A stretch of DNA of 64,000 nt from NCBI GenBank assembly GCA_964414145.1, contig CAYPVH010000002.1, forward strand, positions 59,369-123,368, given 5' to 3'. Of the stretch, positions 11,401 to 44,323 are shown in pieces; within the stretch, counting starts at the first letter, position 1; each line of letters opens with the position of its first letter. A program made the position numbers and the translations under genes. The notes below the pieces were generated by a model. That model saw nothing but the letters and a program-made list of their open reading frames with translations, ran no database searches and was not told the DNA's origin. Source of the stretch: an uncultured Gammaproteobacteria bacterium. GTDB taxonomy: Bacteria; Patescibacteriota; Microgenomatia; UBA1406.

Positions 11401-12289
11401 CGAGAATAGTTTTAATTTAGAGTTTGTTGCTATGGATATGGCAAATAGCCAAATTCAGGTTGAATGCTATAAAAAGGGCCCAACAGACTCAACATATACA
11501 AAGTTTGATACTACAAAAAATTTAAAGGCAGGCGGGAACAGCGGTCAGTGTGTAGTAAACTCAAGTGTTATGCCTGAGAATGGCTCGTACGGGTTTTATG
11601 TTATAGCAACCGGTTCGATGCAGGTAAGCAGTGAGTATGTAATTGTTGATTACAACTCAAGCAGACCAAGTACTCCTGTAAGTTATAGCAAAGATAAAAT
11701 AGACTCTTGTCACTATAAGATTAAATTCAAAACAGCCGACGACGGAGATAGGACTAATGGTGTAGAAATTTATAGGTCGGGAAACAATAGTTTTAATATC
11801 GACTCGAGTAATAAGATAGCCACAGTAAGCGTTGGTTCCAACGAAGAAAAAGAATATACAGACTCGGTTCCAGATTGCGGAAAGGATTACTACTATGCAA
11901 TTCGGGCAGTTGACCAGTTTGGCAATGTTTCTTCTGTGATTGGCGACAAAAATATAAAATTTATAACTAGCTCAACAACAATCACAACTACAGTTACCGA
12001 CACTACAGAAACGGAGGCAATTCCTGTAACAACTAATGAGTCTCAAGTTAGGCCAGATAATACAGATGAAACGGGTAGTTCACAAGAATCGGGTACAAAA
12101 AAAGACACTGAAGACAATACAGATATAGAAACAGAACAGGGTGAAGTACTGGGTGTTCAAGAACAAAAAAAATTATTGGATAAACTAAAGTCTTTTGTGG
12201 TTAAAAATAAAGGAATTGCTGGTTTAATTGTTTTGTTCGTAGTAGTATTGATTTATGTTCTTATTCAGAAAATCAAAAAAGCTAAGTAA
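5429..12289 (+). CDS. Giant cell-surface adhesin-like protein. Order of parts: PT linker, Cys-rich domain, prealbumin/SpaA-like folds, about 10 SdrD-B/Cna-B-like repeats, DUF11-like domain, internal LPATG sorting signal, then an FN3-containing membrane module
   Basis: 2286 aa. The recurring unit is G-S-I-x-G-x-K-[WF]-E-D-x-N-G-[ND]-G-x-x-D...GW...T-D-x-x-G-x-Y-x-F-x-N-L-x-P-G-x-Y. A DUF11-like stretch reads LTIAKSNNVWPTTTTPGNSVEYKIVL...VKVTDLPPEGF. LPATG is at residues 1921-1925. There is no N-terminal signal peptide; the product starts in a PT-rich linker (TPTPIPGPTQIIQPTIIPTPTG). Confidence 0.85.
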   Translation: MELASQEEDWLKTDNEITPTPIPGPTQIIQPTIIPTPTGDILNEGINIERNPTPYSEIGTVETEVVETYQCLQNSLNGCVITDKEDYSPNEVVLISGHGFIPNTPYVLVIASETGQLAEQFGILTNKEGSFEYSYQLDGTYRPNYSVFVYDSNNNLVTETSFTDSPPSECISDTDWADDEPGQKDLTEMCTDYSEWSAFLEVSWNWDDIAWSGNNTGDACSLFDNDNDGYANYAVCVQVTDEPAVFDSQYLYTCNDTSAVRCFDSTLKTPSANTICVASVQSGTNPFDLGSDTVADCKINTLDVGGSPTILLDVCSYPSAQPNSDPSDCIVASTANQTGFLEVKKVIDPSTDSGLFNLQIDGTTYKYDAGNNGSTGEKIVDAGNHIIRETAGTATTLTDYTSSIECKDANGSGSIVAQITGPGPLTVPVENNDDIVCTITNTYQGGSVTIIKDRVPDYPESFQFTGDLGSFDLSGDSTAVDYQKTFTNLTPQTYVVTELEPSETYLDSISCTGDTDNGTVVNLDNNSVNIDLDQNEDIVCTFTNKERGSISGTKWEDMNGNGIRDAEDLPISGWTVKLDKDADGVIDQTTTTDGNGDYTFNNLLPGTYKVLEESPYPWNVSYPSSGINYYNGIVLTTGDSLTGYNFGNYKNGEIKGYKWEDINGDGNKDNGEGAPDNQWQIKLWKEIDGIPVDQGSSVYSNPTTGAFTFGVTPGTYYLSEVMQEGWLQTYPTNAVLAPDGVTRLLGPIVITSGSISENNNFGNVQQGSISGYKYEDMDGDLSTTEDLSSIFGWTIDLYECIDDFDNCLIKETTQTDNDGYYIFENLLPGLYKIIEALPGGWTNILPITINGELTAGEVSTENNFINFENVSITACKVEDNDGLVNTTEDQTFVNGWEVTLTKNDISDTQLTETDGCYTWSNLEPGDYALSEEARNGWTNLNSSTHSFGIVESGQSYSYTFVNSRLGEIIVEKQVLPDGYYQTFAFNGEVSGMIGDGQQLSKTVLPGTYTVSESMPYTSGYQLKNIVCDDDNSVSNIQAGTATYIVEPGETVKCTFTNEMFGSITAKKFHDYNQDETQNAGEPSLPNWQMSFYDGFGCEEENNTWSSTTGTDGTVTMYSLLPGEYSVKERLVEGWMNTTDLCQNIIVAPGENTSVDFGNLQLGSLIVHKFEDIDGDGVKQASEPYVENWRMTLHNGNSCTNQNQIDEGFTNENGEYEFSNLTPGIYSVFEWPQNGWTNSTGNPCKTVTLTANQNTTVEFGNYKTGFIEGRKFEDLNSSGSYNTGEPFLPGWTIRLYNDKDGSWQDNDIESITDGSGWYRFSDLSMGRYKICEVMQSGWTQTVPTGTVNNEESNEAPRCRVVTVDESGEVLRRNFGNVQYGSVRVHKFEDLNNNSIFNDDEPLLDNWVIQLGNETKTTVNGIAEFNNLIPGNYGLTELTYLTDWQLTNIYCDNVDFAIDSSNQYNVTVASGENVNCYVGNYQLGLIQGRKYYDYNQNGSKDSDDTWLKGWVIRLYKDVRGIWQDISETRTTSNNGLFRFENLEPGTYYTCEVLQEGWQQTGPVLGGQRIVNQSPNSNIDEAPVCWQSVINQSGTRRTGRRFGNVQYGNILVTKYNDLNNNGQRDPEELVLPDWEITLKKVQDSDYAESSLTDIEGSVQFNNLLEAEYYLSETMKEGWQQTDITCYLEEQESVTEDVQVDLVDPYDSENGQYLLNLNPGETYNCEIGNHYAPPILTIAKSNNVWPTTTTPGNSVEYKIVLDVEDNNIKNVKVTDLPPEGFTYRGGSYKVLLTRGGTTTDITSQVNEPVYHSPGVWGLGDLEKDDQVTMIYTADIQGSTDFGLYKDLAFAYGCPIGQEQCSVTDEEAVVASSVDSGTADDGVVNENFVGTKVNINQETTETNTFSVEKEEEKKEEGSVLGASTGLPATGSVTLITQIALVSMLGSLLLLAINLLRKKKAHIVSLLVLTAIFFNITQVNAAEITSVRLEEPKSPTNENSFNLEFVAMDMANSQIQVECYKKGPTDSTYTKFDTTKNLKAGGNSGQCVVNSSVMPENGSYGFYVIATGSMQVSSEYVIVDYNSSRPSTPVSYSKDKIDSCHYKIKFKTADDGDRTNGVEIYRSGNNSFNIDSSNKIATVSVGSNEEKEYTDSVPDCGKDYYYAIRAVDQFGNVSSVIGDKNIKFITSSTTITTTVTDTTETEAIPVTTNESQVRPDNTDETGSSQESGTKKDTEDNTDIETEQGEVLGVQEQKKLLDKLKSFVVKNKGIAGLIVLFVVVLIYVLIQKIKKAK
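7070..10600 (+). repeat. Protein-level tandem array of about 10-11 diverged SdrD-B/Cna-B-like domains (about 95-115 aa each) with Ca-binding-like D/N-x-D/N-G loops
   Basis: Unit starts are GSISGTKWEDMNGNG, GEIKGYKWEDINGDG, GSISGYKYEDMDGD, VSITACKVEDNDG, GSITAKKFHDYNQDE, GSLIVHKFEDIDGDG, GFIEGRKFEDLNSSG, GSVRVHKFEDLNNNS, GLIQGRKYYDYNQNG and GNILVTKYNDLNNNG. The units have diverged at the DNA level, with no long identical DNA repeats seen. Confidence 0.6.
11189..11290 (+). other. Complete sortase sorting signal located internally (LPATG + 25-aa hydrophobic segment + RKKK)
   Basis: The codons tta cca gct acc ggt at 11189..11203 encode LPATG. They are followed by SVTLITQIALVSMLGSLLLLAINLL and RKKK, and the ORF continues with no stop. 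Confidence 0.8.
11291..12286 (+). other. Embedded second surface-protein module: signal-peptide-like segment, two FN3-like domains, T/E-rich linker, C-terminal TM + KIKKAK
   Basis: AHIVSLLVLTAIFFNITQVNA|AE has an AxA-like cleavage context. The FN3 hallmark is ...YYYAIRAVDQFGNVSS. The module ends GIAGLIVLFVVVLIYVLIQKIKKAK. Confidence 0.6.
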
Positions 12290-12914
12290 AACTGCCAATT
12301 CTAATTCTTTCCAGTTAAAAAATCTACTAAAATTAATCTTATTATTATCATTGATAATACTGTTTCTTATTTATTTTCCGGTTGTAAAAGAAGAAATACT
12401 TTACTTTTTTAATAAGCCTGATTTTACCCGCAGCGTATCGTTAACCAAAAAAGCCAACAAGAATGTTATAAAACCGGTTAATAACCAATTTGCCATTGTT
12501 ATACCAAAAATAAACGTTAATAGCTCTGTGGTTGAAAATGTTAGTCCATTCAATTCAGAAGAATACCAGACCGCCCTAACAAAAGGAGTAGCGCATTCAA
12601 TCACTTCGGCAGTACCCGGAAAAGGTCAGAATGTTTTTATCTTTGCTCATTCCGCAGGTAATTTTTACTATGCAAATAGGTTTAATGCAATTTTTTATTT
12701 AATTCACAAACTAGATCTGAATGACAACATTTATATTATATATAAAGGCAAAAAACATCATTATCAAGTTAAGAAAAAAATAATTGTAGATTCAAAAAGA
12801 ACAGATTATCTTTATCCACAGTTTAGTAATAACGAAAGCCTAACGCTTATGACTTGCTGGCCGCCGGGAACAACTTTAAAAAGGCTAATTGTAGTAGCCA
12901 ATATTGTAGAGTAA
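12255..12914 (+). CDS. Sortase (transpeptidase, N-terminal membrane anchor)
   Basis: 219 aa with a basic N-terminus and TM (LLKLILLLSLIILFLIYF). Catalytic contexts are IFAHS (His), TLMTCWPPG (TLxTC Cys) and KRLIVV (Arg). The ATG at 12255 overlaps the adhesin 3' end by 35 nt. Confidence 0.85.
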   Translation: MFLFRKSKKLSKTANSNSFQLKNLLKLILLLSLIILFLIYFPVVKEEILYFFNKPDFTRSVSLTKKANKNVIKPVNNQFAIVIPKINVNSSVVENVSPFNSEEYQTALTKGVAHSITSAVPGKGQNVFIFAHSAGNFYYANRFNAIFYLIHKLDLNDNIYIIYKGKKHHYQVKKKIIVDSKRTDYLYPQFSNNESLTLMTCWPPGTTLKRLIVVANIVE

Positions 12915-13511: not shown

Positions 13512-13539
13512 TTGAAATACACAAAATTTGTGTTACAAT
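13512..13539 (+). promoter_or_regulatory. Promoter TTGAAA-16-TACAAT of the sortase-fusion gene, with the -10 box 8 nt from ATG 13548
   Basis: TTGAAA at 13512..13517 and TACAAT at 13534..13539. The ORF-track TTG start at 13512 is the -35 hexamer read as a codon. Confidence 0.55.
13515..13534 (+). promoter_or_regulatory. Copy 2 of the shared 20-nt box, filling the -35/-10 spacer (perfect palindrome ACACAAA-A-TTTGTGT)
   Basis: AAATACACAAAATTTGTGTT. The core at 13519..13533 is a perfect 7-bp inverted repeat around a central A. Confidence 0.6.
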
Positions 13540-13547
13540 TTACAATT

Positions 13548-14834
13548 ATGAGTATTAAAAAACACAACCAACAAACCCTTTCTGTTAAAAAAACTAATTC
13601 TATTGTTCAGAAGCTTTCTACATTTTTCCTTGTTGTTATTTTTTCACTTTTCCTTTTAACTACAACTAATGTTTGGGCAGATGACACGGCAACAGGTTCG
13701 GCTCAAATAGAATCAGAGAATACACCTACTCCAACAGAAACCGAAAAGAAATGCCCTGAGGGTTCAGATTGGGTAAAGGTTGATAATAATAAAGCAGGTG
13801 ACGATGATAATAGCGATGATGTCATTTCTTACACAGATCCAAGCGGAAATACTATTAGTGGGGTTTGTGTAAAGGGGGGTAAAGAAGGTACTAGCCCAAA
13901 TGGATACCTGGAATACTTTTATGAAGATGGTCCTTATATGTATGATGGTGCTTTATGTTTTACAATTTCGGGTATAGGAACCGATAAAGTTACAATTACA
14001 TATAGTGGAGATGGTGTTTGTGCAGAACTATCTCATGCTAGTTTTTATACAGGTGAGCCTACGCCCACTCCTACAGATGAAATAACTCCTACAGACGAGA
14101 TTACACCAACAGATGAAATAACACCAACAGAAGAAATAACAGAAGCGCCTACCCCAACAACTGAGCCAACTTCTACCCCAACACCAACGGAACAGGAAGA
14201 TAATAACGATGATGATGATAATGATGATAACAACGATGACAATAATGATGACAATAACGACTCTAATAATAATATTGGTGGCGCCGAATCTAACCCGGTG
14301 GTTTTAGCAGCTATCGAAACAACCAGGCCACAGGTACTTTCAGCTGTAGACAACTATAACCCGTTACTTGATTCCATTAAAAAAACAGGTAAAGTTTTGG
14401 GAATAAGTACAAAAAAGTTACCAAAAACCGGAGTTAAAGTAGCTAACTGGGCAATGCCTAAATACCCATCAAGTAATAAAGCTATGGAAAATTCCTACAT
14501 AGTTATCAATAAGATAGGAATTAACGCCCCACTGTACCAAGCCAGCAATATAGGTGAAGACTTGTTAGTAGGCGACAGTGAAATACTAAATACCGGCAAT
14601 ATGTATTACGGCCACAATTCTCGCTCTGCTTTTGAAAGTCTATGGCAGTTAAGAAAAGGCGACAGCATAATTGTAACCAAAAACGGTAACACCCAAGTAT
14701 ATACGGTTAATAGCACAGCATATATAAACGAAACAGAAGTTGAAAAAACCAATACGGGTAGCAACGAAATCAGTTTGGTAACCTGTGTTTTGGGTAATTC
14801 AAATTTAAGACTAGTAGTTAAAGCAAGTAAATAA
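13548..14834 (+). CDS. Sortase-domain fusion protein. Order of parts: signal/anchor, 4-Cys domain, PT repeats, D/N tract, LPKTG motif, C-terminal sortase catalytic domain
   Basis: 428 aa from ATG 13548. STFFLVVIFSLFLLTTTNVWA|DD is the signal. The C-terminal ~110 aa have YYGHNS (His), LVTC (Cys, TGT 14784..14786) and LRLVV (Arg), aligned like the neighbouring sortase. LPKTG lies about 20 aa before the catalytic domain. Confidence 0.8.
   Translation: MSIKKHNQQTLSVKKTNSIVQKLSTFFLVVIFSLFLLTTTNVWADDTATGSAQIESENTPTPTETEKKCPEGSDWVKVDNNKAGDDDNSDDVISYTDPSGNTISGVCVKGGKEGTSPNGYLEYFYEDGPYMYDGALCFTISGIGTDKVTITYSGDGVCAELSHASFYTGEPTPTPTDEITPTDEITPTDEITPTEEITEAPTPTTEPTSTPTPTEQEDNNDDDDNDDNNDDNNDDNNDSNNNIGGAESNPVVLAAIETTRPQVLSAVDNYNPLLDSIKKTGKVLGISTKKLPKTGVKVANWAMPKYPSSNKAMENSYIVINKIGINAPLYQASNIGEDLLVGDSEILNTGNMYYGHNSRSAFESLWQLRKGDSIIVTKNGNTQVYTVNSTAYINETEVEKTNTGSNEISLVTCVLGNSNLRLVVKASK
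14073..14144 (+). repeat. 4 x 18-bp in-frame tandem repeat encoding (T)DEITP units
   Basis: The units are acagatgaaataactcct / acagacgagattacacca / acagatgaaataacacca / acagaagaaataacagaa. Confidence 0.85.
14199..14273 (+). repeat. GAT/AAT/AAC/GAC low-complexity tract encoding a pure D/N acidic stretch
   Basis: It encodes DNNDDDDNDDNNDDNNDDNNDSNNN. Confidence 0.8.
14418..14432 (+). other. LPKTG pentapeptide inside the sortase-fusion protein, not followed by a TM or charged tail
   Basis: The codons tta cca aaa acc gga. The context is GKVLGISTKKLPKTGVKVANWAMPKYPSSNK, followed by the sortase domain. Confidence 0.8.
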
Positions 14835-31969: not shown

Positions 31970-32608
31970 TTAAAAACTATATTCAACGGCGGTAATCTTA
32001 CCCATTCTAGCTACCGGGTAATATCTGAAGAATACTCTACCAACAATATTATTCATAGGCACAAAACCAAACTCTCTTGAGTCCGATGATCCCGGTCTAT
32101 TATCTCCCATTACGAAAAATGAATCTGCAGGTACTATAACTTCTGTATTGTCCTGCATAAAGCCAGCTGGAAAAACAGGAGTTTCAACATCGATATAAGT
32201 TTCTGTTAATACTTGATCATTTATGAAAACTTTGCCGTCTGTTATTTTAACCTTTTCATTAGGTAATCCAATAACTCTTTTGATAAAGTCAATATCGGGG
32301 TTTTCCGGAGATTTAAGAATAACAACATCACCTCTTTTGGGTGATGTAAATTTGTAGCTGATTTTGTCAGTTAATACATATTCTTTATCTTCGTACGTTG
32401 GGAACATCGAATTTCCTTTTATTTGATGAGGTTGCATTAAAAATAAATAGATTACAATAAAAAAAGCCCCACCAAGCGCAATACTTTGAAGAAAGTCAAA
32501 TATTAAGTCCACAAATCGTGCAAACACACCCTTTTTTTCTAAATTACTATTATTACTGTCATACTGACTGCCGCTTATCCATCCTGAGTTGGCTGAATCA
32601 TTTTCCAT
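31970..32608 (-). CDS. lepB: Signal peptidase I
   Basis: TM, then IKGNSMFPT (the catalytic Ser box SMxPT), DFIKRVIGLP (Lys box) and GDNRPGSSDSR. Confidence 0.9.
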   Translation of the reverse strand: MENDSANSGWISGSQYDSNNSNLEKKGVFARFVDLIFDFLQSIALGGAFFIVIYLFLMQPHQIKGNSMFPTYEDKEYVLTDKISYKFTSPKRGDVVILKSPENPDIDFIKRVIGLPNEKVKITDGKVFINDQVLTETYIDVETPVFPAGFMQDNTEVIVPADSFFVMGDNRPGSSDSREFGFVPMNNIVGRVFFRYYPVARMGKITAVEYSF

Positions 32609-34660: not shown

Positions 34661-35458
34661 TTAAATAATTAATCCGGCAATTACCAGACCCAAACTTAAG
34701 AATAAAAGAATCACCGTTTTTGTTGTTATTCCTGTTTTGGGAATAGAGTCGGTTTCTGTAATCTCAGTAACCTGAGTTGGTTCGTTTTTTTCGTCTGGTG
34801 CTTTCGCCAGTGTTTGCGGTGTGGGGGTACTGGTGCTTACAACTTTAGCAAGATATCTGGTTGGGCTGGGAATAGGGGTAGAAGTGGTTTTGGAAGTTGG
34901 GATAACTGTTATCTGTGGTGTTGTGGTTGGTGCAATGGTTGTGGTTGGCACTGAAATAGTTGCAGTAGCTTCTGGGATATCTTCTGGGATATCTTCTGGG
35001 ATATCCTCTTCATCACTTGAAGTGGGGGTTACAGACTGCAAATTTTTTTGTGTATCTGGTTCTATTGACGGACTTATATTGGAAATGGTTTCGGTAGTAA
35101 AAGGGGTATAAATGGATGTAGGTTCAAGGTTTGCTCGAGGAATATAGGTAGTTTTATTATTATTCAAGAAATAAGTAACAATAAACATATTGATCACAAT
35201 TAATAAAACAACACTTATAGTTATAATTGGTTTAAGATTTCTTTTCGTTTGTTTATGATCTAATTTTTTAGCATTTTCAATTTTTTGGATATATTCTTTT
35301 GAATTCTCTTTTAAAGCATTTTGTTTCAAAGGAGCAACGTTTGGTTGTTTATTTTTCTTTTTTTCATCTATAAAATTTTTGGCTTGAAAAATAAAAATAG
35401 ACAAAACAACTATAAAAGCTATTACCGGTATAATTGGATAAGTAATTATAAAATTCAT
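34661..35458 (-). CDS. PT-rich surface protein with a C-terminal IPKTG sorting signal
   Basis: 265 aa with two N-terminal hydrophobic segments, an EDIPEDIPEDIPE repeat and a T/P-rich region. The C-terminus reads DSIPKTGITTKTVILLFLSLGLVIAGLII, with no basic tail. Confidence 0.7.
   Translation of the reverse strand: MNFIITYPIIPVIAFIVVLSIFIFQAKNFIDEKKKNKQPNVAPLKQNALKENSKEYIQKIENAKKLDHKQTKRNLKPIITISVVLLIVINMFIVTYFLNNNKTTYIPRANLEPTSIYTPFTTETISNISPSIEPDTQKNLQSVTPTSSDEEDIPEDIPEDIPEATATISVPTTTIAPTTTPQITVIPTSKTTSTPIPSPTRYLAKVVSTSTPTPQTLAKAPDEKNEPTQVTEITETDSIPKTGITTKTVILLFLSLGLVIAGLII
34730..34744 (-). other. IPKTG sortase-type motif
   Basis: The minus strand reads att ccc aaa aca gga, followed by 22 mostly hydrophobic residues and the stop. 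Confidence 0.7.
34970..35005 (-). repeat. 3 x 12-bp perfect in-frame tandem repeat (EDIP units)
   Basis: The plus strand reads ttctgggatatc three times. Confidence 0.9.
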
Positions 35459-35470
35459 AATATGATTATT

Positions 35471-36778
35471 CTAATAAATAACAAGCAATAAACCAAATAA
35501 GCTAATACCGGAAGCTAGAATAATAAGTAGGCTGTTGTTAAAACCGGTTGTTGGAATTAACTTCTTTGAAATTGTGGGGTTAATTGGAGTTGGAACATTT
35601 GTAATAACAACTGCTGTAGTTGGTGTTGGGGAAGAGATGGTGGGTTCGCTAATAACAGTTGGAGTAGCAACCACTTTAGTTGGAGTGGGGCTGGTAGACG
35701 CAGAAGGAGTTGCTTCTCCAAGAACTGCCTCACCGCTTTTAATAACATAAAATGTTATGTTTTCTTGACGGTTTGAACTTTTTTCTTTTGCGTAAAGACT
35801 GTAAACTCCCGGTTTAAAGGCTTCTTTAGCCATGTATTGCCAGTTTCCTTTTTCGTCTATCATAACTATGGTACTAAATACATAGGGGTTGGTTTGTAGT
35901 TCAATAAAGGTATTTGGTTTTCCAACACCTCTAAATACCGGATAAAGACTGTTTACAATTCCTTGAGAACCGGGGTAGGTAATTAATTCATTATTTTGGT
36001 TAGTTTTTTTAATTCCAAGAACAGAGTTTTCGGGATCCAAATAATCATAATCCTTGCCCAAAACTACTGTTTTTAGCGGTTGGCTGTTGGAATACTTGGA
36101 CTTTATCTTACTTTTTTTTCTGTTATTGCCAATAATTGATAAATATAAAGTTTGGGAGTCGGTAAGTTTAATGCTTTTATTGTCATTATCTATCACAATT
36201 GGTAATGAAATAATCCACTCTCCGGTACTTTTACTAAGAGCCGTGAAGTTATTCTTGTTATTTTCAAAGTTAAGTTTGATAAGTGCACCAGACGCTGGTT
36301 TCAAGCTGTCATCGAGCACCTTACCAAAGATGGGAGGATGACTATAAGTTGGCAGTTTTTTGTTTAGGGTTCTAAATCTATATTCCTCATTAATAAATTT
36401 TTTACCCTCAATAACAATATGAAAGCTATATACAGTATTTTGTTGAAGATTAGAAATAGTAAAGTAGTGTATAAATCGGGAAGTTTGTTTATTAGTGTCT
36501 CGGTCATCAAACTTAACCATGTTGGTGTTAATTCCCGTTCCATACTTAATTAAGGCGTTGTTTTCGCTGGTGGTAATAAAACTAATAGTTGCAGAGGTAT
36601 CGGTAAGGTTGCTCAACCTTACCTCGGTCGGCGTACTTGCTTTACCGGCTCTTGAAACAATATTTCCCTTTTGATTGTTATTTAAAAACAGAGCTAATCC
36701 TACAGTAACAACTATGATTATTCCATAAGCCAATAAGCTTGGTATTCTTTTTTTTTCATGAAGAAAATAATAGGTCAT
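35471..36778 (-). CDS. FN3-containing surface protein with a C-terminal IPTTG sorting signal
   Basis: 435 aa with an N-terminal TM. The FN3-like region reads PTEVRLSNLTDTSATISFITTSENNALIKYGT...NTVYSFHIV. It continues with beta-rich domains and a PT-rich stalk, and ends KKLIPTTGFNNSLLIILASGISLFGLLLVIY. Confidence 0.7.
   Translation of the reverse strand: MTYYFLHEKKRIPSLLAYGIIIVVTVGLALFLNNNQKGNIVSRAGKASTPTEVRLSNLTDTSATISFITTSENNALIKYGTGINTNMVKFDDRDTNKQTSRFIHYFTISNLQQNTVYSFHIVIEGKKFINEEYRFRTLNKKLPTYSHPPIFGKVLDDSLKPASGALIKLNFENNKNNFTALSKSTGEWIISLPIVIDNDNKSIKLTDSQTLYLSIIGNNRKKSKIKSKYSNSQPLKTVVLGKDYDYLDPENSVLGIKKTNQNNELITYPGSQGIVNSLYPVFRGVGKPNTFIELQTNPYVFSTIVMIDEKGNWQYMAKEAFKPGVYSLYAKEKSSNRQENITFYVIKSGEAVLGEATPSASTSPTPTKVVATPTVISEPTISSPTPTTAVVITNVPTPINPTISKKLIPTTGFNNSLLIILASGISLFGLLLVIY
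35543..35557 (-). other. IPTTG sortase-type motif
   Basis: Residues 408-412 of the 435-aa product, placed by frame arithmetic from 36778. They are followed by 23 hydrophobic residues and the stop, with no basic tail. Confidence 0.65.
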
Positions 36779-36981
36779 TTTTTTTGTTCTAGTGTTTCTA
36801 AGAAATCCACATCTGGTAGAGGTTTTATATCTACTTTTAAACTTGTTTCATATTCAACAGTTAATTTACTGTTCTTTTCAATATGATATATCTCAACCAT
36901 GATCCATGCAAATATTGTTAATAAAAAGATTAATGACAAATAAAAAAATTCGCGTCGGTATGTAAACTTAATTTTTTTCAT
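36775..36981 (-). CDS. Small single-pass membrane protein, unknown function
   Basis: 68 aa with a TM (FFYLSLIFLLTIFAWIMVEIY). Its stop overlaps the start of the next gene by 4 nt. Confidence 0.5.
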   Translation of the reverse strand: MKKIKFTYRREFFYLSLIFLLTIFAWIMVEIYHIEKNSKLTVEYETSLKVDIKPLPDVDFLETLEQKK

Positions 36982-36993
36982 ATAAACCTATCA

Positions 36994-37560
36994 CTATCTT
37001 ACATAGTAGTAGGTTTCTATATTAGTAGTCAAGTCCAAAAGAGCGCTACTTGTACTAATGTCATGTTTTTGAATTGTCATGTTTTTATAAACAAAAACAC
37101 GCCGTGAGTTAGCTATCGTGTTCAGTAGCTCTGTGGTATCTGTGTATGTACCACTTCCACCTATGTTTATATCAATACTATTTAAACCAAGGTTTTTTGG
37201 AGGAACAATGCTAAAATCTTTTAAACTAAAAGTATCGAGGTTAATGTTTTGATTTAATATTTTTGCAGTGTCTTCGATTTTCGGTTCATCTGGCATCGCT
37301 TCGTCTATTAATGCTTTTTTGTTTAATATAACCATGTATTTTGATTGCGCTTGAATAATTTGTTGTATTTTTTCTTCTAAAACGCGATTTACTTCTTCAT
37401 ATTCCTTTTTCTCCTTGTTTAATGTAAGAATCATACCAAGCGATGGTCTAACTGCAAATATGGCAAAGAAAGCAATAGTAATAATTATGAAAGAAATTAC
37501 TTTATAGTCTTTGTTAACCTTTTGTTCTTTTTTATGCTTCATTATTAACTTTAATTTCAA
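36994..37560 (-). CDS. PilO-like bitopic membrane protein (TM + coiled coil + alpha/beta domain)
   Basis: 188 aa with a basic N-terminus, TM (VISFIIITIAFFAIFAV), a coiled coil (KEKKEYEEVNRVLEEKIQQIIQAQ), LIDEAMPDEP, and then a mixed alpha/beta C-terminal domain. The call rests on architecture only. Confidence 0.4.
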   Translation of the reverse strand: MKLKLIMKHKKEQKVNKDYKVISFIIITIAFFAIFAVRPSLGMILTLNKEKKEYEEVNRVLEEKIQQIIQAQSKYMVILNKKALIDEAMPDEPKIEDTAKILNQNINLDTFSLKDFSIVPPKNLGLNSIDINIGGSGTYTDTTELLNTIANSRRVFVYKNMTIQKHDISTSSALLDLTTNIETYYYVR

Positions 37561-38056
37561 AGTAGTAAATATTTTGTTCTTTGGTTATTTTTTCAACTGT
37601 AACTTTCTTATTCAAAACGGTTTCTAATCTTAGTTGCATTCTTTTAATGTCTATGGCCTCATATGTTTTACCAAATACAACCACTAAGTTATCATGAAGC
37701 TCTACTTTAGACAAATTAACAGATTCGGGTATGTTGCTTAAGGTTTCTGTAAGCACAAGGTACTGAGCTTGAGAAGTATTGTAAACATTAACTAAGTTTT
37801 GTGTCTTTTCGGCCAGTAGGTTGTTGTGTTGAATCATTTCTTCAGAAACCAAAATAATTTGGTTTTTCTCATCGATTGCTTCTTTTAAATCTATGACTTG
37901 CTGATCTAAAATAATTTTTACAAAGAAAACTACTAGCACAAGTAATTGAGTTAGCACAATAATATATTTAGCATAAGAATTCAGAAAAGAAGTTGCCTCG
38001 GACAATAAACTAACTGTCTTCTTTTCGAGAAGATTAAATTTAAAGTTTTTAGCCAT
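37532..38056 (-). CDS. PilN-like bitopic membrane protein (N-terminal FNLL motif + TM + coiled coil)
   Basis: 174 aa. MAKNFKFNLLEKK resembles the PilN N-terminal INLLP motif. It has a TM (YIIVLTQLLVLVVFFVKIIL) followed by a coiled coil. Confidence 0.45.
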   Translation of the reverse strand: MAKNFKFNLLEKKTVSLLSEATSFLNSYAKYIIVLTQLLVLVVFFVKIILDQQVIDLKEAIDEKNQIILVSEEMIQHNNLLAEKTQNLVNVYNTSQAQYLVLTETLSNIPESVNLSKVELHDNLVVVFGKTYEAIDIKRMQLRLETVLNKKVTVEKITKEQNIYYFEIKVNNEA

Positions 38057-38062
38057 TGATCT

Positions 38063-38296
38063 TTATTTTTTTACTTTACTTAGTCTAGCTTTAAGTCTAG
38101 ATGCTTTATTTTTGTGTATGACTCCCTTTTTGGCAGCTCTGTCTACTAAAGACACTGTTTCTTTCAGCTGTTCTTTGGTTGGTTTTGAAACATACTTTTT
38201 CACTGCTTTTTTGTACCTACTCTTGTAGGCACTGTTCACTTCTTGTCTCTTTTTGTCTTGCCGCATTTTCTTTTTTGCTGATTTTATGTTAGGCAT
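38063..38296 (-). CDS. rpsT: 30S ribosomal protein S20
   Basis: MPNIKSAKKKMRQDKKRQEVNSAYKSRYKKAVKK...IHKNKASRLKARLSK. Confidence 0.92.
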   Translation of the reverse strand: MPNIKSAKKKMRQDKKRQEVNSAYKSRYKKAVKKYVSKPTKEQLKETVSLVDRAAKKGVIHKNKASRLKARLSKVKK

Positions 38297-38367
38297 TATA
38301 TTTAGACTATTATAACTTTTAATAATATAATATAGATGGTACTAATTATACAACAAAGATATTATTG

Positions 38368-40050
38368 ATGTGGCACCAACTAAAAAATTTATATAAAAGT
38401 AAGCAAAGCACACTCTATGCTTCAACTATAGTGGTTGCACTAACACTATTTGTTGCCAGAATTTTAGGTCTGGTTAAATTAAGGGTATTAACCGGGTATT
38501 TTGACAAGAGCCAACTAGATCTTTTTTTTGCCGCATTTCGGCTACCAGATTTTATTTTTGAGGTTTTTGTTGCCGGTTCAATTTCATCTTGCTTTATCCC
38601 AATAATTTCGGAAATAGTAGATAAAAAGAAAAACGGTAAAGACGAAATAATGATATTTTCGCAATCACTATCATTGATCTTCTTATTTTCTTGGATAATT
38701 ATTTTTTTGGTAATGAAAATATTTGCAAAAAATATAGTTGAAATACTGGTGCCCGGCTATACTGCGGCACAAGTAAATATGGTTTCTTCAATGTCCCTAA
38801 CCATTCTTTTTTATCAGGTTCCGTTCTTACTTTTGGGTAATGTATTATCTGCAATTCTACAGACAGAAAAACAATTTTTAATACCCGGCATAGCTCCTGC
38901 TTTTTATAATTTGGGAATTATTGCCGGTGTTATCTTGTTTGCGCAAAAACATGGTCTATATGGCGCCTTATATGGCGTAGGTATTGGTTCTGTTTTGTAC
39001 TTTATTACTTTGTTTTTAGGTGTATATATTCTTGGTTATCCAATAAAGATTAAAATATATTTGTTTGATAAAAAAATTAAACGTTTTTTCAATCTATTTT
39101 GGCCCAGGTTCTTTAATTCGTTAACTGCACAAGTTGATGCCACGGTAGATTTGGCTTTGTCAACCCTAAGAGGAGTAGGAAGTTATTCATCTTTTTACTT
39201 AGCTAGAAACCTACAAATTTTACCGGTCAGTTTTTTTGGTATTGCCGTGTCTCAAACTGCTTTACCTTTTTTTTCCAGGCTATATCATCAGAATAAAAAG
39301 GAAGAATTAATGCAACTCTTGGTTAAGTTTGTTTTACAAATAACTTTTATTATGATGCCGTTTGTTATTTTTTTTACAGCGCTCAGAGTACCAATTGTCC
39401 GTCTATTTTTTGGAGGCGACAAGTTTGACTTATTAGCTACACAAAGAACTGCAAATGTATTGTCAATATTTGCTTTGTCGTTGCCTTTTCATACTGTATA
39501 TTACCTTATCACGAGAGCCTATTTTGCTATACAAGACACAAAAACCCCTTTTGTTACCGGAGTTATTTTTACTCTATCAAATACGCTTTTAAGTATCATA
39601 TTTATCAAAGTTTTAAATTTACCTGTTTATTTTTTAGCATTATCATTTACAACATCAATTACTTTAAACACTGCTGTTTTATTTTATCTCCTAGTTAAAA
39701 AACTGGATTCGGTAAAAATTGTTCCTGTTTTGGGCAAGTTTTTATTAATGGGTTTGAATACAATTGCTACTACTTTTGTAGTTTGGGTTAGTCTAAAGTT
39801 ACTGGATGGACTAGTTTTTGATACGGGAAGAACAATAAATCTTTTTATATTAACAATGATATGTGTCTTTATTGGTAGTATGGTTTATTTATATTTATCA
39901 TGGATATTTGTTCCTGCCGAACTAAAAAGTGTTCTCAGCTTAGTTTATAGATTTAGTTTCTTTAAGAAAACCATTTCTAAATATAAAGAAATTTTTTATA
40001 CTGGTAAGACCGATATTCCTTTAGAAGATAAGCAAGAGCAAAAATTATGA
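38368..40050 (+). CDS. murJ: Lipid II flippase MurJ (MviN, MOP superfamily)
   Basis: About 560 aa and polytopic. LGLVKLRVLTGYFDKSQLDLFFAAFRLPDFIFEVFVAGSISSCFIP matches the MurJ N-terminal pattern. The start is ATG 38368 or TTG 38365. Confidence 0.8.
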   Translation: MWHQLKNLYKSKQSTLYASTIVVALTLFVARILGLVKLRVLTGYFDKSQLDLFFAAFRLPDFIFEVFVAGSISSCFIPIISEIVDKKKNGKDEIMIFSQSLSLIFLFSWIIIFLVMKIFAKNIVEILVPGYTAAQVNMVSSMSLTILFYQVPFLLLGNVLSAILQTEKQFLIPGIAPAFYNLGIIAGVILFAQKHGLYGALYGVGIGSVLYFITLFLGVYILGYPIKIKIYLFDKKIKRFFNLFWPRFFNSLTAQVDATVDLALSTLRGVGSYSSFYLARNLQILPVSFFGIAVSQTALPFFSRLYHQNKKEELMQLLVKFVLQITFIMMPFVIFFTALRVPIVRLFFGGDKFDLLATQRTANVLSIFALSLPFHTVYYLITRAYFAIQDTKTPFVTGVIFTLSNTLLSIIFIKVLNLPVYFLALSFTTSITLNTAVLFYLLVKKLDSVKIVPVLGKFLLMGLNTIATTFVVWVSLKLLDGLVFDTGRTINLFILTMICVFIGSMVYLYLSWIFVPAELKSVLSLVYRFSFFKKTISKYKEIFYTGKTDIPLEDKQEQKL

Positions 40051-41297
40051 GTCAACTAAAAATAACCGCCATAAATGCTATAAGAAATAAACTGCTGGGT
40101 AAAACAATTAATTACACCGATGCCTATGCAATAATGAGCTGTTTTAGTACCGGTGAACTGGGGGAGATATTTGTAGCTTATTTTACTGCTTCTTCTTTTA
40201 AAGATGGGTTTACCGATGAAGAACTGTATTATTTGGTAAAAGCAATGGTTGAAACTGGCGAGCGTTTTAATTTTGACGGAGTTGTAACAGACAAGCATTC
40301 GATTGGTGGGCTCCCTGGTACCAGAACAACATTAATCGTTGTTCCAATAATTGCCGCTGCTGGTTTTATAATTCCGAAAACATCATCTCGAGCGATTACT
40401 ACCCCAGCGGGTACGGCAGATTGTATGGAAATATTGGCTCCGGTAAACTTGTCATATCAAAAAATAGAAAATGTTGTTAATAAAACCGGGGGCTGTATTG
40501 TTTGGGGAGGACATCTAAAGATTGCCCCCGCAGATGACATTATTATTAATGTAGAAAAACCTTTATCGTTTGAATCGTATGACAAAATAATGATTTCTGT
40601 TCTAGCTAAGAAAATTGCTATGTCGTCAAAATATGTTGTTATTGATATTCCTGTTGGTCCAACAATGAAAATCAAATATGTTAAAGACGCACTGAAATTT
40701 TCTGAAAAAATGAAAAAACTTGCCGGCCGATTTTCAATTAATCTGGTTACAGATATTAATTACCAATTACAACCTGCGGGCAATGGTATTGGTCCTGTAT
40801 TTGAAACAAGCGACGCTTTGAAGGTTTTGTTTCAAACCCCTAACAGACCACTTGCTCTTGAATATAAAGCAATTCAGCTTGCTAGTCAGCTATTAGACTT
40901 GTGTTATGAGCAAAAAAAGATAAAAAAAGATGGACAAATAGTAGCTGAGGAGATATTAAGATCCGGAAAAGCTCTTCATAAATTCAAGGAGATAATCGAA
41001 GCTCAGGGGGGCAATCCAGATATAGATATAAATAACCTCAAAGGAGCAAAAAATACTAAAGAAATCAAATCAAATGTATCAGGAAAAATCAGATTTGTTA
41101 ATAACTTTAATATATGTGAAATTGCTAAAGTACTGGGAGCCCCAGAACAGAAGACGGCAGGAATGATATTGAACAAACGATTTGATGAAGAAGTTAAAAG
41201 TAATGATATACTAATAACAATGTATTCAGAAGAGAAGGAAAAGTTAGATAACGCAACAAACTTGATTAGTAAATTACCAGTTTATCAATTAAAATAA
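40047..41297 (+). CDS. Thymidine/AMP phosphorylase-family enzyme (archaeal-type DeoA-like)
   Basis: DKHSIGGLPGTRTTLIVVPIIAAAGFIIPKTSSRAITTPAGTADCMEILAP closely matches the phosphate/pentose-binding core of the family. Its start overlaps the murJ stop by 4 nt. Confidence 0.8.
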   Translation: MSQLKITAINAIRNKLLGKTINYTDAYAIMSCFSTGELGEIFVAYFTASSFKDGFTDEELYYLVKAMVETGERFNFDGVVTDKHSIGGLPGTRTTLIVVPIIAAAGFIIPKTSSRAITTPAGTADCMEILAPVNLSYQKIENVVNKTGGCIVWGGHLKIAPADDIIINVEKPLSFESYDKIMISVLAKKIAMSSKYVVIDIPVGPTMKIKYVKDALKFSEKMKKLAGRFSINLVTDINYQLQPAGNGIGPVFETSDALKVLFQTPNRPLALEYKAIQLASQLLDLCYEQKKIKKDGQIVAEEILRSGKALHKFKEIIEAQGGNPDIDINNLKGAKNTKEIKSNVSGKIRFVNNFNICEIAKVLGAPEQKTAGMILNKRFDEEVKSNDILITMYSEEKEKLDNATNLISKLPVYQLK

Positions 41298-41301
41298 CCA
41301 T

Positions 41302-41517
41302 ATGTTTACTAGATTTAAAAAAATAATAGAACCAATGCAATTATGGCTTTTAGGGACCGGCAGGTGTGTTGGTTGCGGGAAAGAGCTGAGCAAAATTAAG
41401 AATATTAAAAGTTTAAGTAAGGAAAACAAATTAATCAGTTGTGCCTGTAGTCGGCAATATGTATATAACATTGCCAAGAAGACTTATAGAAGAGCACTTC
41501 TAAGCGAAGCTAAATGA
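41302..41517 (+). CDS. Small basic Cys-containing protein, unknown function
   Basis: 71 aa with CVGCGKEL...CACSRQ. It overlaps mltG by 4 nt. Confidence 0.4.
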   Translation: MFTRFKKIIEPMQLWLLGTGRCVGCGKELSKIKNIKSLSKENKLISCACSRQYVYNIAKKTYRRALLSEAK

Positions 41518-42479: not shown

Positions 42480-42495
42480 TAATTTATACAAAACC

Positions 42496-43653: not shown

Positions 43654-43723
43654 AAAATATAGTATATCCAAAATCAGCAACAGAAGTTTAAGTTTTTGAT
43701 ATATTATATGAAGTTTTACAAAC

Positions 43724-44323
43724 ATGAAAATTCATAGGAATATAGCTTTAATTATTGTAGATCTGCAGTGGGATTATTGTGCCGCCCAGGGTTTTGCAGG
43801 AAAGCTAGGCAGGGATTTGTCTTTAATTCAGAAAATAATACCCACCTTAAAACTTTTCTATCGAGAGTTTAAAAAAATGGAGTTACCGGTTATATTTACC
43901 AAATATATCGCTCGCAAAGACATTTCACCAAAGAATGTAAGAATTAATAAGGATAGAGAAGAACGTGCCAGGTTATGCTTACTTAATAGTAAAGGATCGG
44001 ATTTTTATGGTCTTAAACCAAAGACCGATGACATTATAATTACAAAATTTTATTATGATTCATTTGCTAAAACCAGCCTTTTGTCTCAGTTAAAATCTAT
44101 GAAGGTTAAAACTTTAATAATTTGTGGGGTTAGAACAGAACTGGGGGTTGATTCTACTGCAAAGAGAGCGGTTAGTGAGGGATTTACGGTTATTGTTTTA
44201 AAAGATTTAATTGCTACTTATAAAGAAAACAATAGGCAAAATAATCTATTTTTGCAGGTCTTCAATAGGTATTACGGCTACGCTCTTACCAGTAGTAATT
44301 TTTTAGATATGCTTTTAAACTAG
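43724..44323 (+). CDS. Isochorismatase-family cysteine hydrolase (nicotinamidase-like)
   Basis: IALIIVDLQWDYC, and TLIICGVRTELGVDSTAKRAVSEGF (catalytic Cys context). Confidence 0.75.
   Translation: MKIHRNIALIIVDLQWDYCAAQGFAGKLGRDLSLIQKIIPTLKLFYREFKKMELPVIFTKYIARKDISPKNVRINKDREERARLCLLNSKGSDFYGLKPKTDDIIITKFYYDSFAKTSLLSQLKSMKVKTLIICGVRTELGVDSTAKRAVSEGFTVIVLKDLIATYKENNRQNNLFLQVFNRYYGYALTSSNFLDMLLN

What the first reader, a model, noticed from the sequence alone, without database searches (positions are those of the whole stretch)
34661..38056. PilN/PilO-like membrane pair in one tight operon with two IPxTG-sorted surface proteins, with no other pilus genes nearby
Directly after rpsT (6-nt gap) come five tightly packed or overlapping minus-strand genes:
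- a PilN-like protein (MAKNFKFNLLEKK.. + TM + coiled coil);
- a PilO-like protein (TM + coiled coil + alpha/beta domain);
- a 68-aa TM protein;
- a 435-aa FN3 protein ending in IPTTG + hydrophobic tail;
- a 265-aa PT-rich protein ending in IPKTG + hydrophobic tail.

In type IV pilus systems the PilN N-terminal INLLP peptide is held by the actin-like PilM, and PilN/PilO form the inner-membrane alignment platform. Here there is no pilM, pilB, pilC, pilin or prepilin peptidase gene anywhere in the window. The cargo-like genes instead carry sortase signals. This could be a PilN/O-type scaffold repurposed for organising sortase-dependent surface assembly. The PilN/PilO calls rest on architecture and a short motif only.
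Basis: inference. Interest (0 to 1): 0.6.

Follow-up and report, generated by a model that had tools for sequence, protein, structure and literature searches.

The report
Pilus-platform genes joined to wall-anchored proteins
In a large group of ultra-small (CPR/Microgenomates) bacteria, the genes for two membrane "platform" proteins of the type IV pilus machine lie apart from all other pilus genes, in one tight operon with cell-wall-anchored surface proteins, which may show how these bacteria fasten the pilus machine to their wall.

Summary
Five tightly packed minus-strand genes follow rpsT at 34661-38056.

- **Identity.** P1 is a divergent PilN. Of 124 family members, 118 match Pfam PilN, the profile finds M. 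xanthus PilN at 1e-7, and the AF2 model (pLDDT 90) best matches GspL/PilN periplasmic domains. P2 is PilO: 76 of 80 orthologues match Pfam PilO, and PDB PilO is found at 1.6e-8.
- **Conservation.** The order rpsT-pilN-pilO-small TM-three-β-sandwich protein-LPxTG protein recurs in about 90 loci from Roizmanbacteria and other Microgenomates. It holds down to about 20% identity, with overlapping start and stop codons.
- **What is absent.** None of these loci has pilM, pilB, pilC or a pilin gene within 10 kb.
- **Sorting signals.** P4 and P5 are the only two ORFs in the window with a [LI]PxTG motif plus a hydrophobic tail. Two sortase genes lie 20 kb away.

Best reading (confidence 0.45): these are the cell's real PilN/PilO. 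PilM is encoded elsewhere and docks on the conserved INLL peptide. The downstream proteins tie the platform to peptidoglycan through sortase.

Whether a second pilMNO set exists elsewhere in the genome could not be tested. I rate this a new variant of a known kind, interest 0.55.

The parts
38063..38296 (-). rpsT (ribosomal protein S20), the first gene of the probable transcription unit
   Evidence: ORF. Pfam Ribosomal_S20p in the orthologous position in L001-L004, L085, L086, L092. Lies directly upstream of pilN in 82 of 84 loci, with a median gap of -4 nt. The best minus-strand promoter-like site in the region lies just upstream of it, which is weak evidence in AT-rich DNA.
37532..38056 (-). 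P1, a divergent PilN: cytoplasmic FNLL peptide, TM, long coiled coil, and a ββαββ ferredoxin-like domain
   Evidence: The window protein itself has no Pfam PilN hit. Its family has 536 clusters at E<=0.001. 118 of 124 sampled members match PF05137 PilN, best 7.8e-16. The family profile finds PDB 3jc8 PilN at 1e-7. AF2 pLDDT is 90. Foldseek's top hits are the periplasmic domains of GspL (XcpY, EpsL, PulL) with target TM-scores of 0.72-0.80; PilN 4bhq, EpsM and PilO are also listed.
36994..37542 (-). P2, PilO (TM, coiled coil, α/β domain). Start taken as the ATG at 37542; the mechanical ORF starts at the TTG at 37560
   Evidence: Pfam PilO E=0.001, 19.7 bits against a cutoff of 22, covering 7-144 of 145 profile positions. 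76 of 80 orthologues match PilO, best 3.7e-11, and 44 of 80 match T2SSM_b. Profile against the PDB: 3jc8 PilO at 1.6e-8, then 2rjz and 5uvr. JGI names near-identical P0010 'Tfp pilus assembly protein PilO'.
36775..36981 (-). P3, a 68-aa bitopic membrane protein with a conserved W-x-x-x-[DE]-[IL]-[YV]-H motif at the outer end of the TM. Function unknown; always follows pilO
   Evidence: One TM at about residues 10-28. Homologue found in 77 of 84 loci. Median pilO-small gap -4 nt. Also present in the reduced trio in L089 and in L091 and L092. No Pfam or NCBIfam match.
35471..36778 (-). P4: signal peptide or anchor, a rod of three β-sandwich (FN3/Ig-like) domains, a PT-rich wall-spanning linker, and IPTTG plus a hydrophobic C-tail (a sortase-type sorting signal without a charged tail)
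   Evidence: Pfam Pur_ac_phosph_N 2.7e-8; fn3 and Big_13 below cutoff. AF2 pLDDT 82: TM 14-34, β-domains at 50-136, 147-245 and 270-345, disordered 350-413, TM 415-434. Foldseek gives only generic FN3/Ig rods. In 60 homologues P409 is conserved in at least 90% and G412 is invariant. Present at this position in 62 of 64 loci with enough sequence.
34661..35458 (-). P5: TM1, basic loop, TM2, a PT-rich stalk, and IPKTG plus a hydrophobic C-tail. A probable membrane-to-wall tether if sortase processes it
   Evidence: TM segments at 1-19, 74-92 and 242-260. The same architecture is seen in L001, L019 and L066. In other loci it is split into a 2-TM protein plus a separate LPxTG protein. 55 of 64 loci have an LPxTG-type signal in gene +4 or +5, LPETG being the commonest. 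NCBIfam LPXTG_anchor scores only 10.2 bits against a cutoff of 15.9.
12255..12914 (+). Sortase, a candidate processing enzyme for P4 and P5. Not linked to the module
   Evidence: Pfam Sortase 4.6e-21. Below all NCBIfam class cutoffs, closest to class C.
13512..14834 (+). Second sortase-domain protein, with the C-terminal catalytic domain at residues 361-439. Not linked to the module
   Evidence: Pfam Sortase 1.7e-13. NCBIfam hits are weak, closest to class C.
38365..40050 (+). murJ (lipid II flippase), the divergent neighbour of rpsT. Context, not shown to be part of the module
   Evidence: Pfam MurJ in the orthologous position in L002, L003, L086, L091, L092. phmmer finds it in 8 loci.

Best explanation
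The five genes, probably co-transcribed with rpsT, form a conserved envelope module of Microgenomates (CPR) bacteria.

Shown:
- P1 and P2 are true, divergent PilN and PilO. They are bitopic proteins with a coiled coil and a ferredoxin-like outer domain, the pair that forms the inner-membrane alignment platform of type IV pilus and type II secretion machines.
- They are always followed by a small bitopic protein, by a three-β-sandwich rod with a PT-rich linker and a P-x-x-G plus hydrophobic C-terminal signal, and by one or two proteins ending in LPxTG plus a hydrophobic tail.
- The module is never next to pilM, pilB, pilC or pilin genes.

Inferred:
- PilN/PilO still serve the cell's type IV pilus machine.
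- The rest of that machine (pilB/T/C/M/D and pilins) sits at a separate locus, and PilM docks on the conserved cytoplasmic (I/F)-N-L-L peptide of PilN.
- The three downstream proteins are lineage-specific outer partners of the platform.
- Sortase cleaves the P4 and P5 signals and links the proteins covalently to peptidoglycan through lipid II.
- P5 would stay in the membrane through its N-terminal TM hairpin, so the platform would be fastened to the wall.
- In a cell with no outer membrane, this would do the job that PilP, PilQ, TsaP and FimV do in diderms: fix the machine in the envelope against extension and retraction forces, and perhaps mark the passage through the wall.
For: PilN identity.

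PilO identity.

PilM-docking motif conserved: I in 106, N in 116, L in 117, L in 87 and P in 63 of 124 members. The role of this peptide in binding PilM comes from published T. thermophilus and P. aeruginosa PilM:PilN structures, which I cite from memory.

Synteny:
- Across 84 loci, rpsT is found in 82, pilO in 83, the small gene in 77 and FN3 in 68 by phmmer.
- Of 64 loci with enough sequence, 62 have the FN3-position gene and 55 an LPxTG-type signal in gene +4 or +5. Median junctions are -4 to +2 nt through to the FN3 gene.
- The same module is seen around distant PilN members at about 20% identity.
- It survives a rearrangement in L091.

Sorting signal conserved in P4. Sortases are in the window, and a sortase family is reported as near-ubiquitous in Microgenomates (PMC6744442).

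The closed Microgenomates genome Ch65 is reported with a single T4P locus containing PilA, minor pilins, PilD, PilB, PilT, PilC and PilM, with no PilN or PilO listed (PMC7143001).
Against: - No PilM, PilB, PilC or pilin gene could be shown in this genome; only 64 kb of it is visible.
- I could not check whether a T4P locus elsewhere carries its own pilN/pilO. In Saccharibacteria the T4P loci do (PMC11623550).
- In the window's own clade the motif is FNLL-E/K, so the proline is lost.
- The sorting signals lack the usual positively charged tail and fall below the NCBIfam LPXTG_anchor cutoff.
- In most Roizmanbacteria the P4 motif is PPVSG, not LPxTG.
- No sortase is syntenic with the module, except one about 5 kb away in L091.
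- The P4 fold is a generic Ig/FN3 rod with no link to any pilus component.
- No physical interaction between the module's proteins has been tested.
Confidence: 0.45

Rival explanations
1. The PilN/PilO pair has been detached from pili and works as a membrane scaffold that organises the sortase-dependent anchoring or assembly of the co-encoded surface proteins. Its cytoplasmic peptide may be held by another actin-like protein such as FtsA. On this reading the module is a new trans-envelope complex tied to wall biogenesis.
For: - Never adjacent to pilM, pilB, pilC or pilin genes in about 90 loci.
- Always co-encoded with proteins carrying sorting signals.
- Overlapping stop and start codons with rpsT (median gap -4 nt), which would fit steady expression.
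- Recurrent wall-biogenesis neighbours: murJ, LytR_cpsA_psr, FemAB, YceG, a sortase.
- Partial precedent: C. perfringens pilN and pilO mutants secrete less of the surface-fibre protein BsaA, and pilC was not among the genes required (PMC11580942).
Against: - The PilM-docking INLL(P) motif is strongly conserved.
- The pilN-pilO-small trio occurs without FN3 or LPxTG genes in L089.
- Sortase is not part of the conserved neighbourhood.
- T4P genes are reported as near-universal in CPR, and a Microgenomates T4P locus is reported with PilM but no listed PilN/PilO.
Confidence: 0.25
2. Neighbours only. PilN, PilO and perhaps the small protein are ordinary pilus-platform genes. The FN3 and LPxTG genes are unrelated wall proteins that happen to share a compact operon in a streamlined genome.
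For: - CPR genomes are dense, and the operon also contains the unrelated rpsT.
- The FN3 and LPxTG genes are missing from L089 and separated from pilN-pilO by murJ in L091.
- The P4 fold gives no functional link to pili.
Against: - The order is kept in 62 of 64 loci, across proteins that have diverged to 20-30% identity, with junctions of -4 to +2 nt.
- Even after the L091 rearrangement, both halves stay around the same murJ-rpsT pair.
- Retention of this kind over such divergence usually reflects shared function. This step is inference.
Confidence: 0.15
3. Not PilN/PilO at all, but DivIC/FtsB-like or other coiled-coil bitopic division proteins misread from their architecture.
For: - The window's P1 has no direct Pfam PilN hit.
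- The first PDB search with the shallow profile returned only coiled-coil noise.
- The dcw cluster lies 10-15 kb away.
Against: - Transitive profile evidence: 118 of 124 members match PilN and 76 of 80 match PilO.
- PDB PilN is found at 1e-7 and PilO at 1.6e-8.
- The fold match to GspL/PilN domains has target TM-scores up to 0.80 at 1.4-2.6 Å rmsd.
Confidence: 0.03

Closest known systems
PilM-PilN-PilO alignment subcomplex of type IVa pili (for example M. xanthus PDB 3jc8, T. thermophilus, P. aeruginosa), and the homologous GspL/GspM of type II secretion
   Same: P1 and P2 are homologous to PilN and PilO by profile and by fold. They share the bitopic topology, the coiled coil, the ferredoxin-like outer domain, the adjacent pilN-pilO order and the N-terminal INLL(P)-type peptide.
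   Different: No pilM lies upstream, and no pilB, pilC, pilP, pilQ or pilin gene is nearby. Here the pair is fused into an rpsT operon and followed by proteins carrying sortase-type signals. In the window's clade the motif lacks the proline.
Complete T4P loci of Saccharibacteria (TM7x: pilB/C/T/M/N/O/D plus pilins; PMC11623550), and the single T4P locus of the Microgenomates genome Ch65 (PMC7143001)
   Same: Same superphylum, monoderm-type envelope, no PilQ. PilN and PilO families are reported as enriched in CPR (PMC6744442).
   Different: In TM7x, pilM, pilN and pilO sit inside the T4P loci. Here they sit apart from any T4P gene. The Ch65 description lists PilM but no PilN or PilO at the T4P locus, which is what one would expect if the rpsT-linked pair supplies them.
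LPXTG cell-wall-anchored surface proteins and sortases of Gram-positive bacteria
   Same: P4 and P5 share the architecture: a PT-rich wall-spanning segment, a [LI]PxTG-like pentapeptide and a hydrophobic C-terminal segment. Sortase genes are present in the genome.
   Different: There is no positively charged tail. The motif is often PPVSG in P4 orthologues. The signals fall below the NCBIfam LPXTG_anchor cutoff. P5 keeps an N-terminal TM hairpin, so it would be tied to both membrane and wall. No adjacent sortase, and no SpaA/CnaB pilin domains.
Pam pili of CPR bacteria (bioRxiv 10.64898/2026.03.03.709456)
   Same: A CPR-specific envelope system reported in Saccharimonadia and Microgenomatia. 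Its PamR is a tandem-FnIII protein with a C-terminal TM helix, proposed to anchor a filament, which superficially resembles P4.
   Different: The Pam operon has donor-strand pilins and chaperone-like PamC/PamD next to ATP synthase genes. It has no PilN or PilO, and the paper proposes no sortase step. None of those features is seen here. I could not compare sequences.
T4P-assisted secretion of the BsaA surface fibre in Clostridium perfringens (PMC11580942)
   Same: A monoderm in which PilN and PilO affect export or assembly of a non-pilin surface protein, with LPXTG proteins and a sortase in the neighbourhood.
   Different: There pilN and pilO are part of a canonical pilMNO set, and the link is genetic, not a conserved operon.

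Membership tests
PilN (Pfam PF05137) | Sequence-profile membership | tested here: met
   Met only transitively. The window protein alone gives no PilN hit. Its family was retrieved by HMM at E down to 1e-26, and 118 of 124 members match PF05137, best 7.8e-16. The family profile finds PDB 3jc8 PilN at 1e-7.
PilN (Pfam PF05137) | Bitopic topology: short cytoplasmic N-terminus, TM, coiled coil, ferredoxin-like periplasmic domain | tested here: met
   AF2 pLDDT 90: helix 17-107, then ββαββ at 114-171. Foldseek's top hits are GspL periplasmic domains with target TM-scores of 0.72-0.80, and PilN 4bhq is also listed.
PilN (Pfam PF05137) | Conserved N-terminal INLLP peptide that binds PilM | tested here: inconclusive
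   The family consensus is INLLP: I 106, N 116, L 117, L 87, P 63 of 124. The window protein has FNLLE, keeping N-L-L but not I or P. Binding to PilM was not testable.
PilN (Pfam PF05137) | Encoded directly downstream of pilM | tested here: not met
   The upstream gene is rpsT in 82 of 84 loci and a Mg-chelatase/ComM-type gene in L089. It is never pilM.
PilO (Pfam PF04350) | Sequence-profile membership | tested here: met
   The window protein scores 19.7 bits, just under the cutoff of 22, but covers 7-144 of 145 positions. 76 of 80 orthologues match, best 3.7e-11. PDB PilO 3jc8 is found at 1.6e-8, with 2rjz and 5uvr also listed.
PilO (Pfam PF04350) | TM, coiled coil and α/β core fold; heterodimer with PilN | not tested
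   One TM is predicted at residues 11-29. Adjacency to pilN is conserved in 83 of 84 loci.
Complete type IVa pilus system | PilB ATPase, PilC platform, PilM, prepilin peptidase and pilins encoded with PilN/PilO | tested here: not met
   None is found in the 64-kb window or within 10 kb in about 90 related loci. Whether they exist elsewhere in the genome cannot be tested with these tools.
LPXTG sortase substrate (NCBIfam TIGR01167) | LPXTG-type pentapeptide followed by a hydrophobic segment | tested here: met
   IPTTG and IPKTG, each followed by 21-24 mostly hydrophobic residues. In the P4 family the P is conserved in at least 90% of 60 homologues and the G is invariant. 55 of 64 loci have LPxTG-type signals in gene +4 or +5.
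LPXTG sortase substrate (NCBIfam TIGR01167) | Positively charged C-terminal tail; score above the model cutoff | tested here: not met
   The proteins end ...LLLVIY and ...VIAGLII with no K or R, and the same holds across orthologues. P5 scores 10.2 bits against a cutoff of 15.9; P4 has no hit.
LPXTG sortase substrate (NCBIfam TIGR01167) | A sortase encoded in the genome | tested here: met
   Two Pfam Sortase-domain genes in the window, at 4.6e-21 and 1.7e-13. Their class is unresolved. Actual cleavage cannot be tested here.
Sortase-assembled (Gram-positive) pilus | Pilin subunits with SpaA/CnaB domains and an adjacent class C sortase | tested here: not met
   P4 has FN3, Pur_ac_phosph_N and Big_13 domains only. 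No sortase is found within 10 kb of the module in the 80 GTDB loci. A SpaA-domain giant protein with sortases does exist 20 kb away, as a separate locus.
Pam pilus operon (CPR) | Donor-strand pilins PamA/B, membrane-anchored chaperones PamC/D, ATP synthase neighbourhood | tested here: not met
   The gene content and neighbours of the module differ (compared with the paper). No sequence comparison was possible because the Pam sequences are not held.
DivIC/FtsB-type division proteins | Short bitopic coiled-coil protein without a ferredoxin-like domain | tested here: not met
   P1 has a confident ββαββ domain that matches GspL/PilN. P2 matches PilO.

The most novel reading that the evidence does not exclude
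The rpsT-linked PilN/PilO pair is a paralogue that no longer serves pili. It would form the membrane base of a previously unrecognised trans-envelope complex specific to Microgenomates. Its cytoplasmic INLL peptide would be held by an actin-like protein (PilM or FtsA). Its outer domains would position a small TM protein, a three-β-sandwich rod and PT-rich tethers for covalent, sortase-mediated attachment to nascent peptidoglycan. In effect it would be a membrane-to-wall rivet coupled to wall synthesis (murJ, FemAB and LCP are neighbours).
Probability: 0.2. Interest if true: 0.8.

Novelty: new variant of a known kind. Interest (0 to 1): 0.55.

Why it matters
Type IV pili are thought to be central to how CPR/Patescibacteria attach to hosts, move and take up DNA. 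How the machine is held in an envelope with no outer membrane and no secretin is not known.

This module is a concrete candidate for the missing wall-side part of the machine. It is ancient, tightly packed and lineage-wide. It couples the PilN/PilO platform to a β-sandwich rod and to proteins with sortase-type signals.

If the pair turns out not to serve pili, it would instead be a reuse of a secretion-machine platform for wall anchoring, which I have not seen described.

Either way the work gives testable assignments to five gene families that are mostly labelled "hypothetical", and it separates out an rpsT-linked PilN subfamily of several hundred sequence clusters.

Tried and rejected
- **Direct family scans of P1** gave nothing useful: Pfam only an Alsin DH hit at E=0.017, NCBIfam only GspM at E=0.14. 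The shallow 9-sequence profile found only coiled-coil noise in the PDB. The exhaustive profile search was needed.
- **The word-indexed homologue search** found only 9 P1 relatives and 2 P2 relatives. That wrongly suggested a tiny family.
- **The search for related loci with the 124-sequence alignment** failed because no stretch was conserved enough. It was repeated with 30 sequences. The pattern used, Y[LFA]RY..., excludes the window's own YAKY clade, so the window's species was not retrieved.
- **Extending the window** failed. Look-ups of the genes at both window edges returned only contigs under 2 kb. The 145-kb NCBI contig carrying the identical P4 (P0160) is not on record for retrieval, and cluster look-ups returned no names or accessions. 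So the rest of the genome, and any pilM/pilB/pilC in it, stayed out of reach.
- **The P4 fold search** returned only generic FN3/Ig rods and gave no functional clue.
- **The Pam pilus operon** was considered as an identity for the module and rejected on gene content.
- **The Ch65 paper's supplement** held no pil gene table.
- **The gene upstream of pilN in L089** was tested as a possible pilM. It is a Mg-chelatase/ComM-type ATPase.
- **FemAB linkage** was checked. It holds in only 5 of 84 loci plus L092 and L093, and FemAB is absent from the window.
- **The promoter and terminator scan** was uninformative in this AT-rich DNA: 23 sites found against 18.5 expected.

Full report
**Observation.**
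- P1: 37532-38056, 174 aa, MAKNFKFNLLEKK....
- P2: 36994-37560. The better start is the ATG at 37542, giving 182 aa, as in homologues P0010 and P0011.
- P3: 36775-36981, 68 aa.
- P4: 35471-36778, 435 aa, ...KLIPTTG plus a hydrophobic tail.
- P5: 34661-35458, 265 aa, ...SIPKTG plus a hydrophobic tail.

The rpsT gene ends 6 nt before P1, and the other junctions range from an 11-nt overlap to a 12-nt gap. The window is a low-GC (about 31-37%) CPR-type genome. It carries a dcw cluster, dnaK/dnaJ/grpE, uvrABC, topA and murJ. I found no pilM, pilB, pilC, pilD or pilin gene, whether by reading all ORFs, by Pfam on the ambiguous ones, or by six-frame motif scans.

**What P1 and P2 are.** P2 scores just under the Pfam PilO cutoff (19.7 against 22 bits) but covers almost the whole model. 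A profile of its orthologues finds M. xanthus PilO (PDB 3jc8) at 2e-4, improving to 1.6e-8 with 80 sequences, followed by P. aeruginosa PilO structures. Of 80 proteins in the same position in related loci, 76 match Pfam PilO.

P1 alone matches nothing. An exhaustive HMM search with its nine close homologues found 536 clusters at E<=0.001, and many of them start with the canonical PilN INLLP motif. Of 124 sampled members, 118 match Pfam PilN, best 7.8e-16. Their profile finds M. xanthus PilN at 1e-7.

An AlphaFold model of P1 (pLDDT 90) shows a free N-terminal peptide, one long TM plus coiled-coil helix (17-107) and a ββαββ domain. Foldseek's five best hits are the periplasmic domains of GspL (XcpY, EpsL, PulL), the type II secretion counterpart of PilN, with target TM-scores of 0.72-0.80. 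Thermus PilN, EpsM and PilO appear lower in the list.

**Conservation.** Close relatives at about 50% identity keep rpsT-P1-P2-small-FN3-~220 aa between murJ and topA. A scan of GTDB species representatives returned 80 loci, nearly all Candidatus Roizmanbacteria or other Microgenomates.
- With the window proteins as queries across 84 loci, rpsT was found in 82, pilO in 83, the small TM protein in 77 and the FN3 protein in 68.
- The order is invariant.
- Median gaps are -4 nt (rpsT-pilN), +1, -4 and +2 nt.
- More distant PilN members at about 20% identity sit in the same arrangement: L085, L086, L092 and L093.
- In L091 the module is split around murJ, with pilN-pilO-small on one side and rpsT-224 aa-FN3 on the other, and a sortase lies 5 kb away.
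- In L089 only pilN-pilO-small is present, behind a ComM-type ATPase.

No sampled locus has pilM, pilB, pilC or a pilin within 10 kb.

**The downstream proteins.**
- P3 is a bitopic protein with a conserved W-x-x-x-[DE]-[IL]-[YV]-H motif.
- P4 is modelled (pLDDT 82) as an N-terminal hydrophobic helix, three β-sandwich domains, a 60-residue disordered PT-rich linker and a C-terminal helix. Its fold matches are generic FN3/Ig rods. Across 60 homologues the P and G of the C-terminal P-x-x-G are at least 90% conserved and invariant, respectively. A K-[KR]-I-P-T motif precedes the N-terminal hydrophobic core.
- P5 and its orthologues share TM1, a basic loop and TM2. After that comes either a PT-rich stalk ending in LPxTG plus a tail, or a small globular domain with a separate LPxTG protein encoded next.
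- Of 64 loci with enough sequence, 62 have the FN3-position gene. Of those, 43 carry a strict P-x-[TSA]-G signal, most often PPVSG. An LPxTG-type signal is present in gene +4 or +5 in 55 loci, most often LPETG.
- In the window, P4 and P5 are the only two of 189 long open segments with such a signal.
- None of these signals has the usual basic tail, and they fall below the NCBIfam LPXTG_anchor cutoff.
- The window encodes two sortase-domain proteins 20 kb away, beside a 2,286-aa SpaA/SdrD-type protein. A sortase family is reported as near-ubiquitous in Microgenomates (PMC6744442).

**How it most likely works.** Shown: PilN and PilO homology, the conserved operon, the conserved sorting-type signals, and the absence of other pilus genes nearby. 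Inferred: the rest.

The cytoplasmic INLL(P) peptide is among the most conserved features of this PilN subfamily. In canonical systems it is the handle by which PilM holds PilN. That comes from published PilM:PilN structures, which I cite from memory. A PilM-type partner therefore probably exists.

The closed Microgenomates genome Ch65 is described as having all its T4P components at one locus: PilA, minor pilins, PilD, PilB, PilT, PilC and PilM. PilN and PilO are not listed (PMC7143001). I therefore favour, at 0.45, the reading that the rpsT-linked pair is the machine's ordinary platform encoded apart from the rest. On that reading P3, P4 and P5 are lineage-specific wall-side partners that sortase fixes to peptidoglycan. 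They would stand in for PilP, PilQ and TsaP in a cell without an outer membrane.

**Rivals.**
It explains the complete separation from pilus genes and the wall-biogenesis neighbours: murJ, LCP, FemAB and YceG. It also has a partial precedent in C. perfringens (PMC11580942).
- Mere co-location in a compact genome (0.15) is hard to square with conservation of the order at 20% identity.

**Comparison and novelty.** In Saccharibacteria, pilM, pilN and pilO lie inside complete T4P loci (PMC11623550). The recently described CPR Pam pili are a different, chaperone-usher-like system without PilN or PilO. My searches found no description of an rpsT-linked pilN-pilO-FN3-LPxTG module. I file it as a new variant of a known kind.

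**Limits.** Only 64 kb of the genome is visible, and attempts to reach the rest failed. Sortase processing, the PilM partner and any contact between module proteins are all untested.

Noticed in passing
window 4917-14834 (+): A separate sortase and adhesin locus. It holds a 160-aa ORF, a 2,286-aa protein with 7 SdrD_B and several SpaA/prealbumin-like domains (5429-12289), a sortase (12255-12914), a thermonuclease-like ORF (12854-13492, judged by eye) and a second sortase (13512-14834). The giant protein ends in a TM plus KKAK tail but shows no LPxTG. The second sortase has a long PT/D/N-rich N-terminal part with an internal LPKTG that is not followed by a TM.
   Followed up: partly
L092 14266-15228; L093 8879-9841; L006, L007, L066, L076, L078 (5.4-6.7 kb downstream of pilN): A FemAB-family gene lies co-directionally after the module in the loci that have the murJ-rpsT arrangement. 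FemAB enzymes build the lipid II peptide cross-bridge, which is the acceptor used by sortases. The gene is absent from the window.
   Followed up: partly
window 36775-36981 (-), and orthologues such as L056 11110-11295 and L092 11271-11459: The small TM protein has a conserved W-x-x-x-[DE]-[IL]-[YV]-H motif at the outer end of its helix (window FAWIMVEIYH, L056 IIAWVIIDIYH, L092 AIWTVYDIYH). It matches no known family.
   Followed up: no
window 36640-36778 (-), the P4 N-terminus, and alignment A5: The P4 family has a conserved K-[KR]-I-P-T motif just before the hydrophobic core, and an x-[RK]-A-x site about 10 residues after it. This recalls specialised Gram-positive signal peptides of the YSIRK type. 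Whether the N-terminus is cleaved is unknown.
   Followed up: partly
window 38365-43725, and L086, L091, L092: Wall-biogenesis genes recur around the module in distant lineages: murJ (divergent from rpsT), YceG/MltG-like (41514-42479), LytR_cpsA_psr (42496-43725; also in L086 and L091) and signal peptidase LepB (31970-32608). Most Roizmanbacteria instead have recO-like, glyS and a 153-aa TM gene upstream of rpsT.
   Followed up: partly
window 40047-41297 (+) and 28523-29527 (-): An AMP/thymidine-phosphorylase-family gene (Glycos_transf_3 in the orthologous position in L002 and L003), and a CofD/YvcK-like gene beside the dcw region. Both appear to be ordinary housekeeping genes and seem unrelated to the module.
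   Followed up: no
window 44388-46079 (-) and 57996-59864 (+): Two further large envelope proteins. One is a 563-aa protein with a CarboxypepD_reg domain and a C-terminal TM. The other is a 622-aa transglutaminase-core protein with a C-terminal TM. Neither has an LPxTG-type motif.
   Followed up: partly
loci L008, L010, L012 and many other CAY*/CAZ* records: Many GTDB records that carry this clearly Microgenomates-type module are titled 'uncultured Gammaproteobacteria bacterium'. This looks like a labelling artefact of the submission.
   Followed up: no
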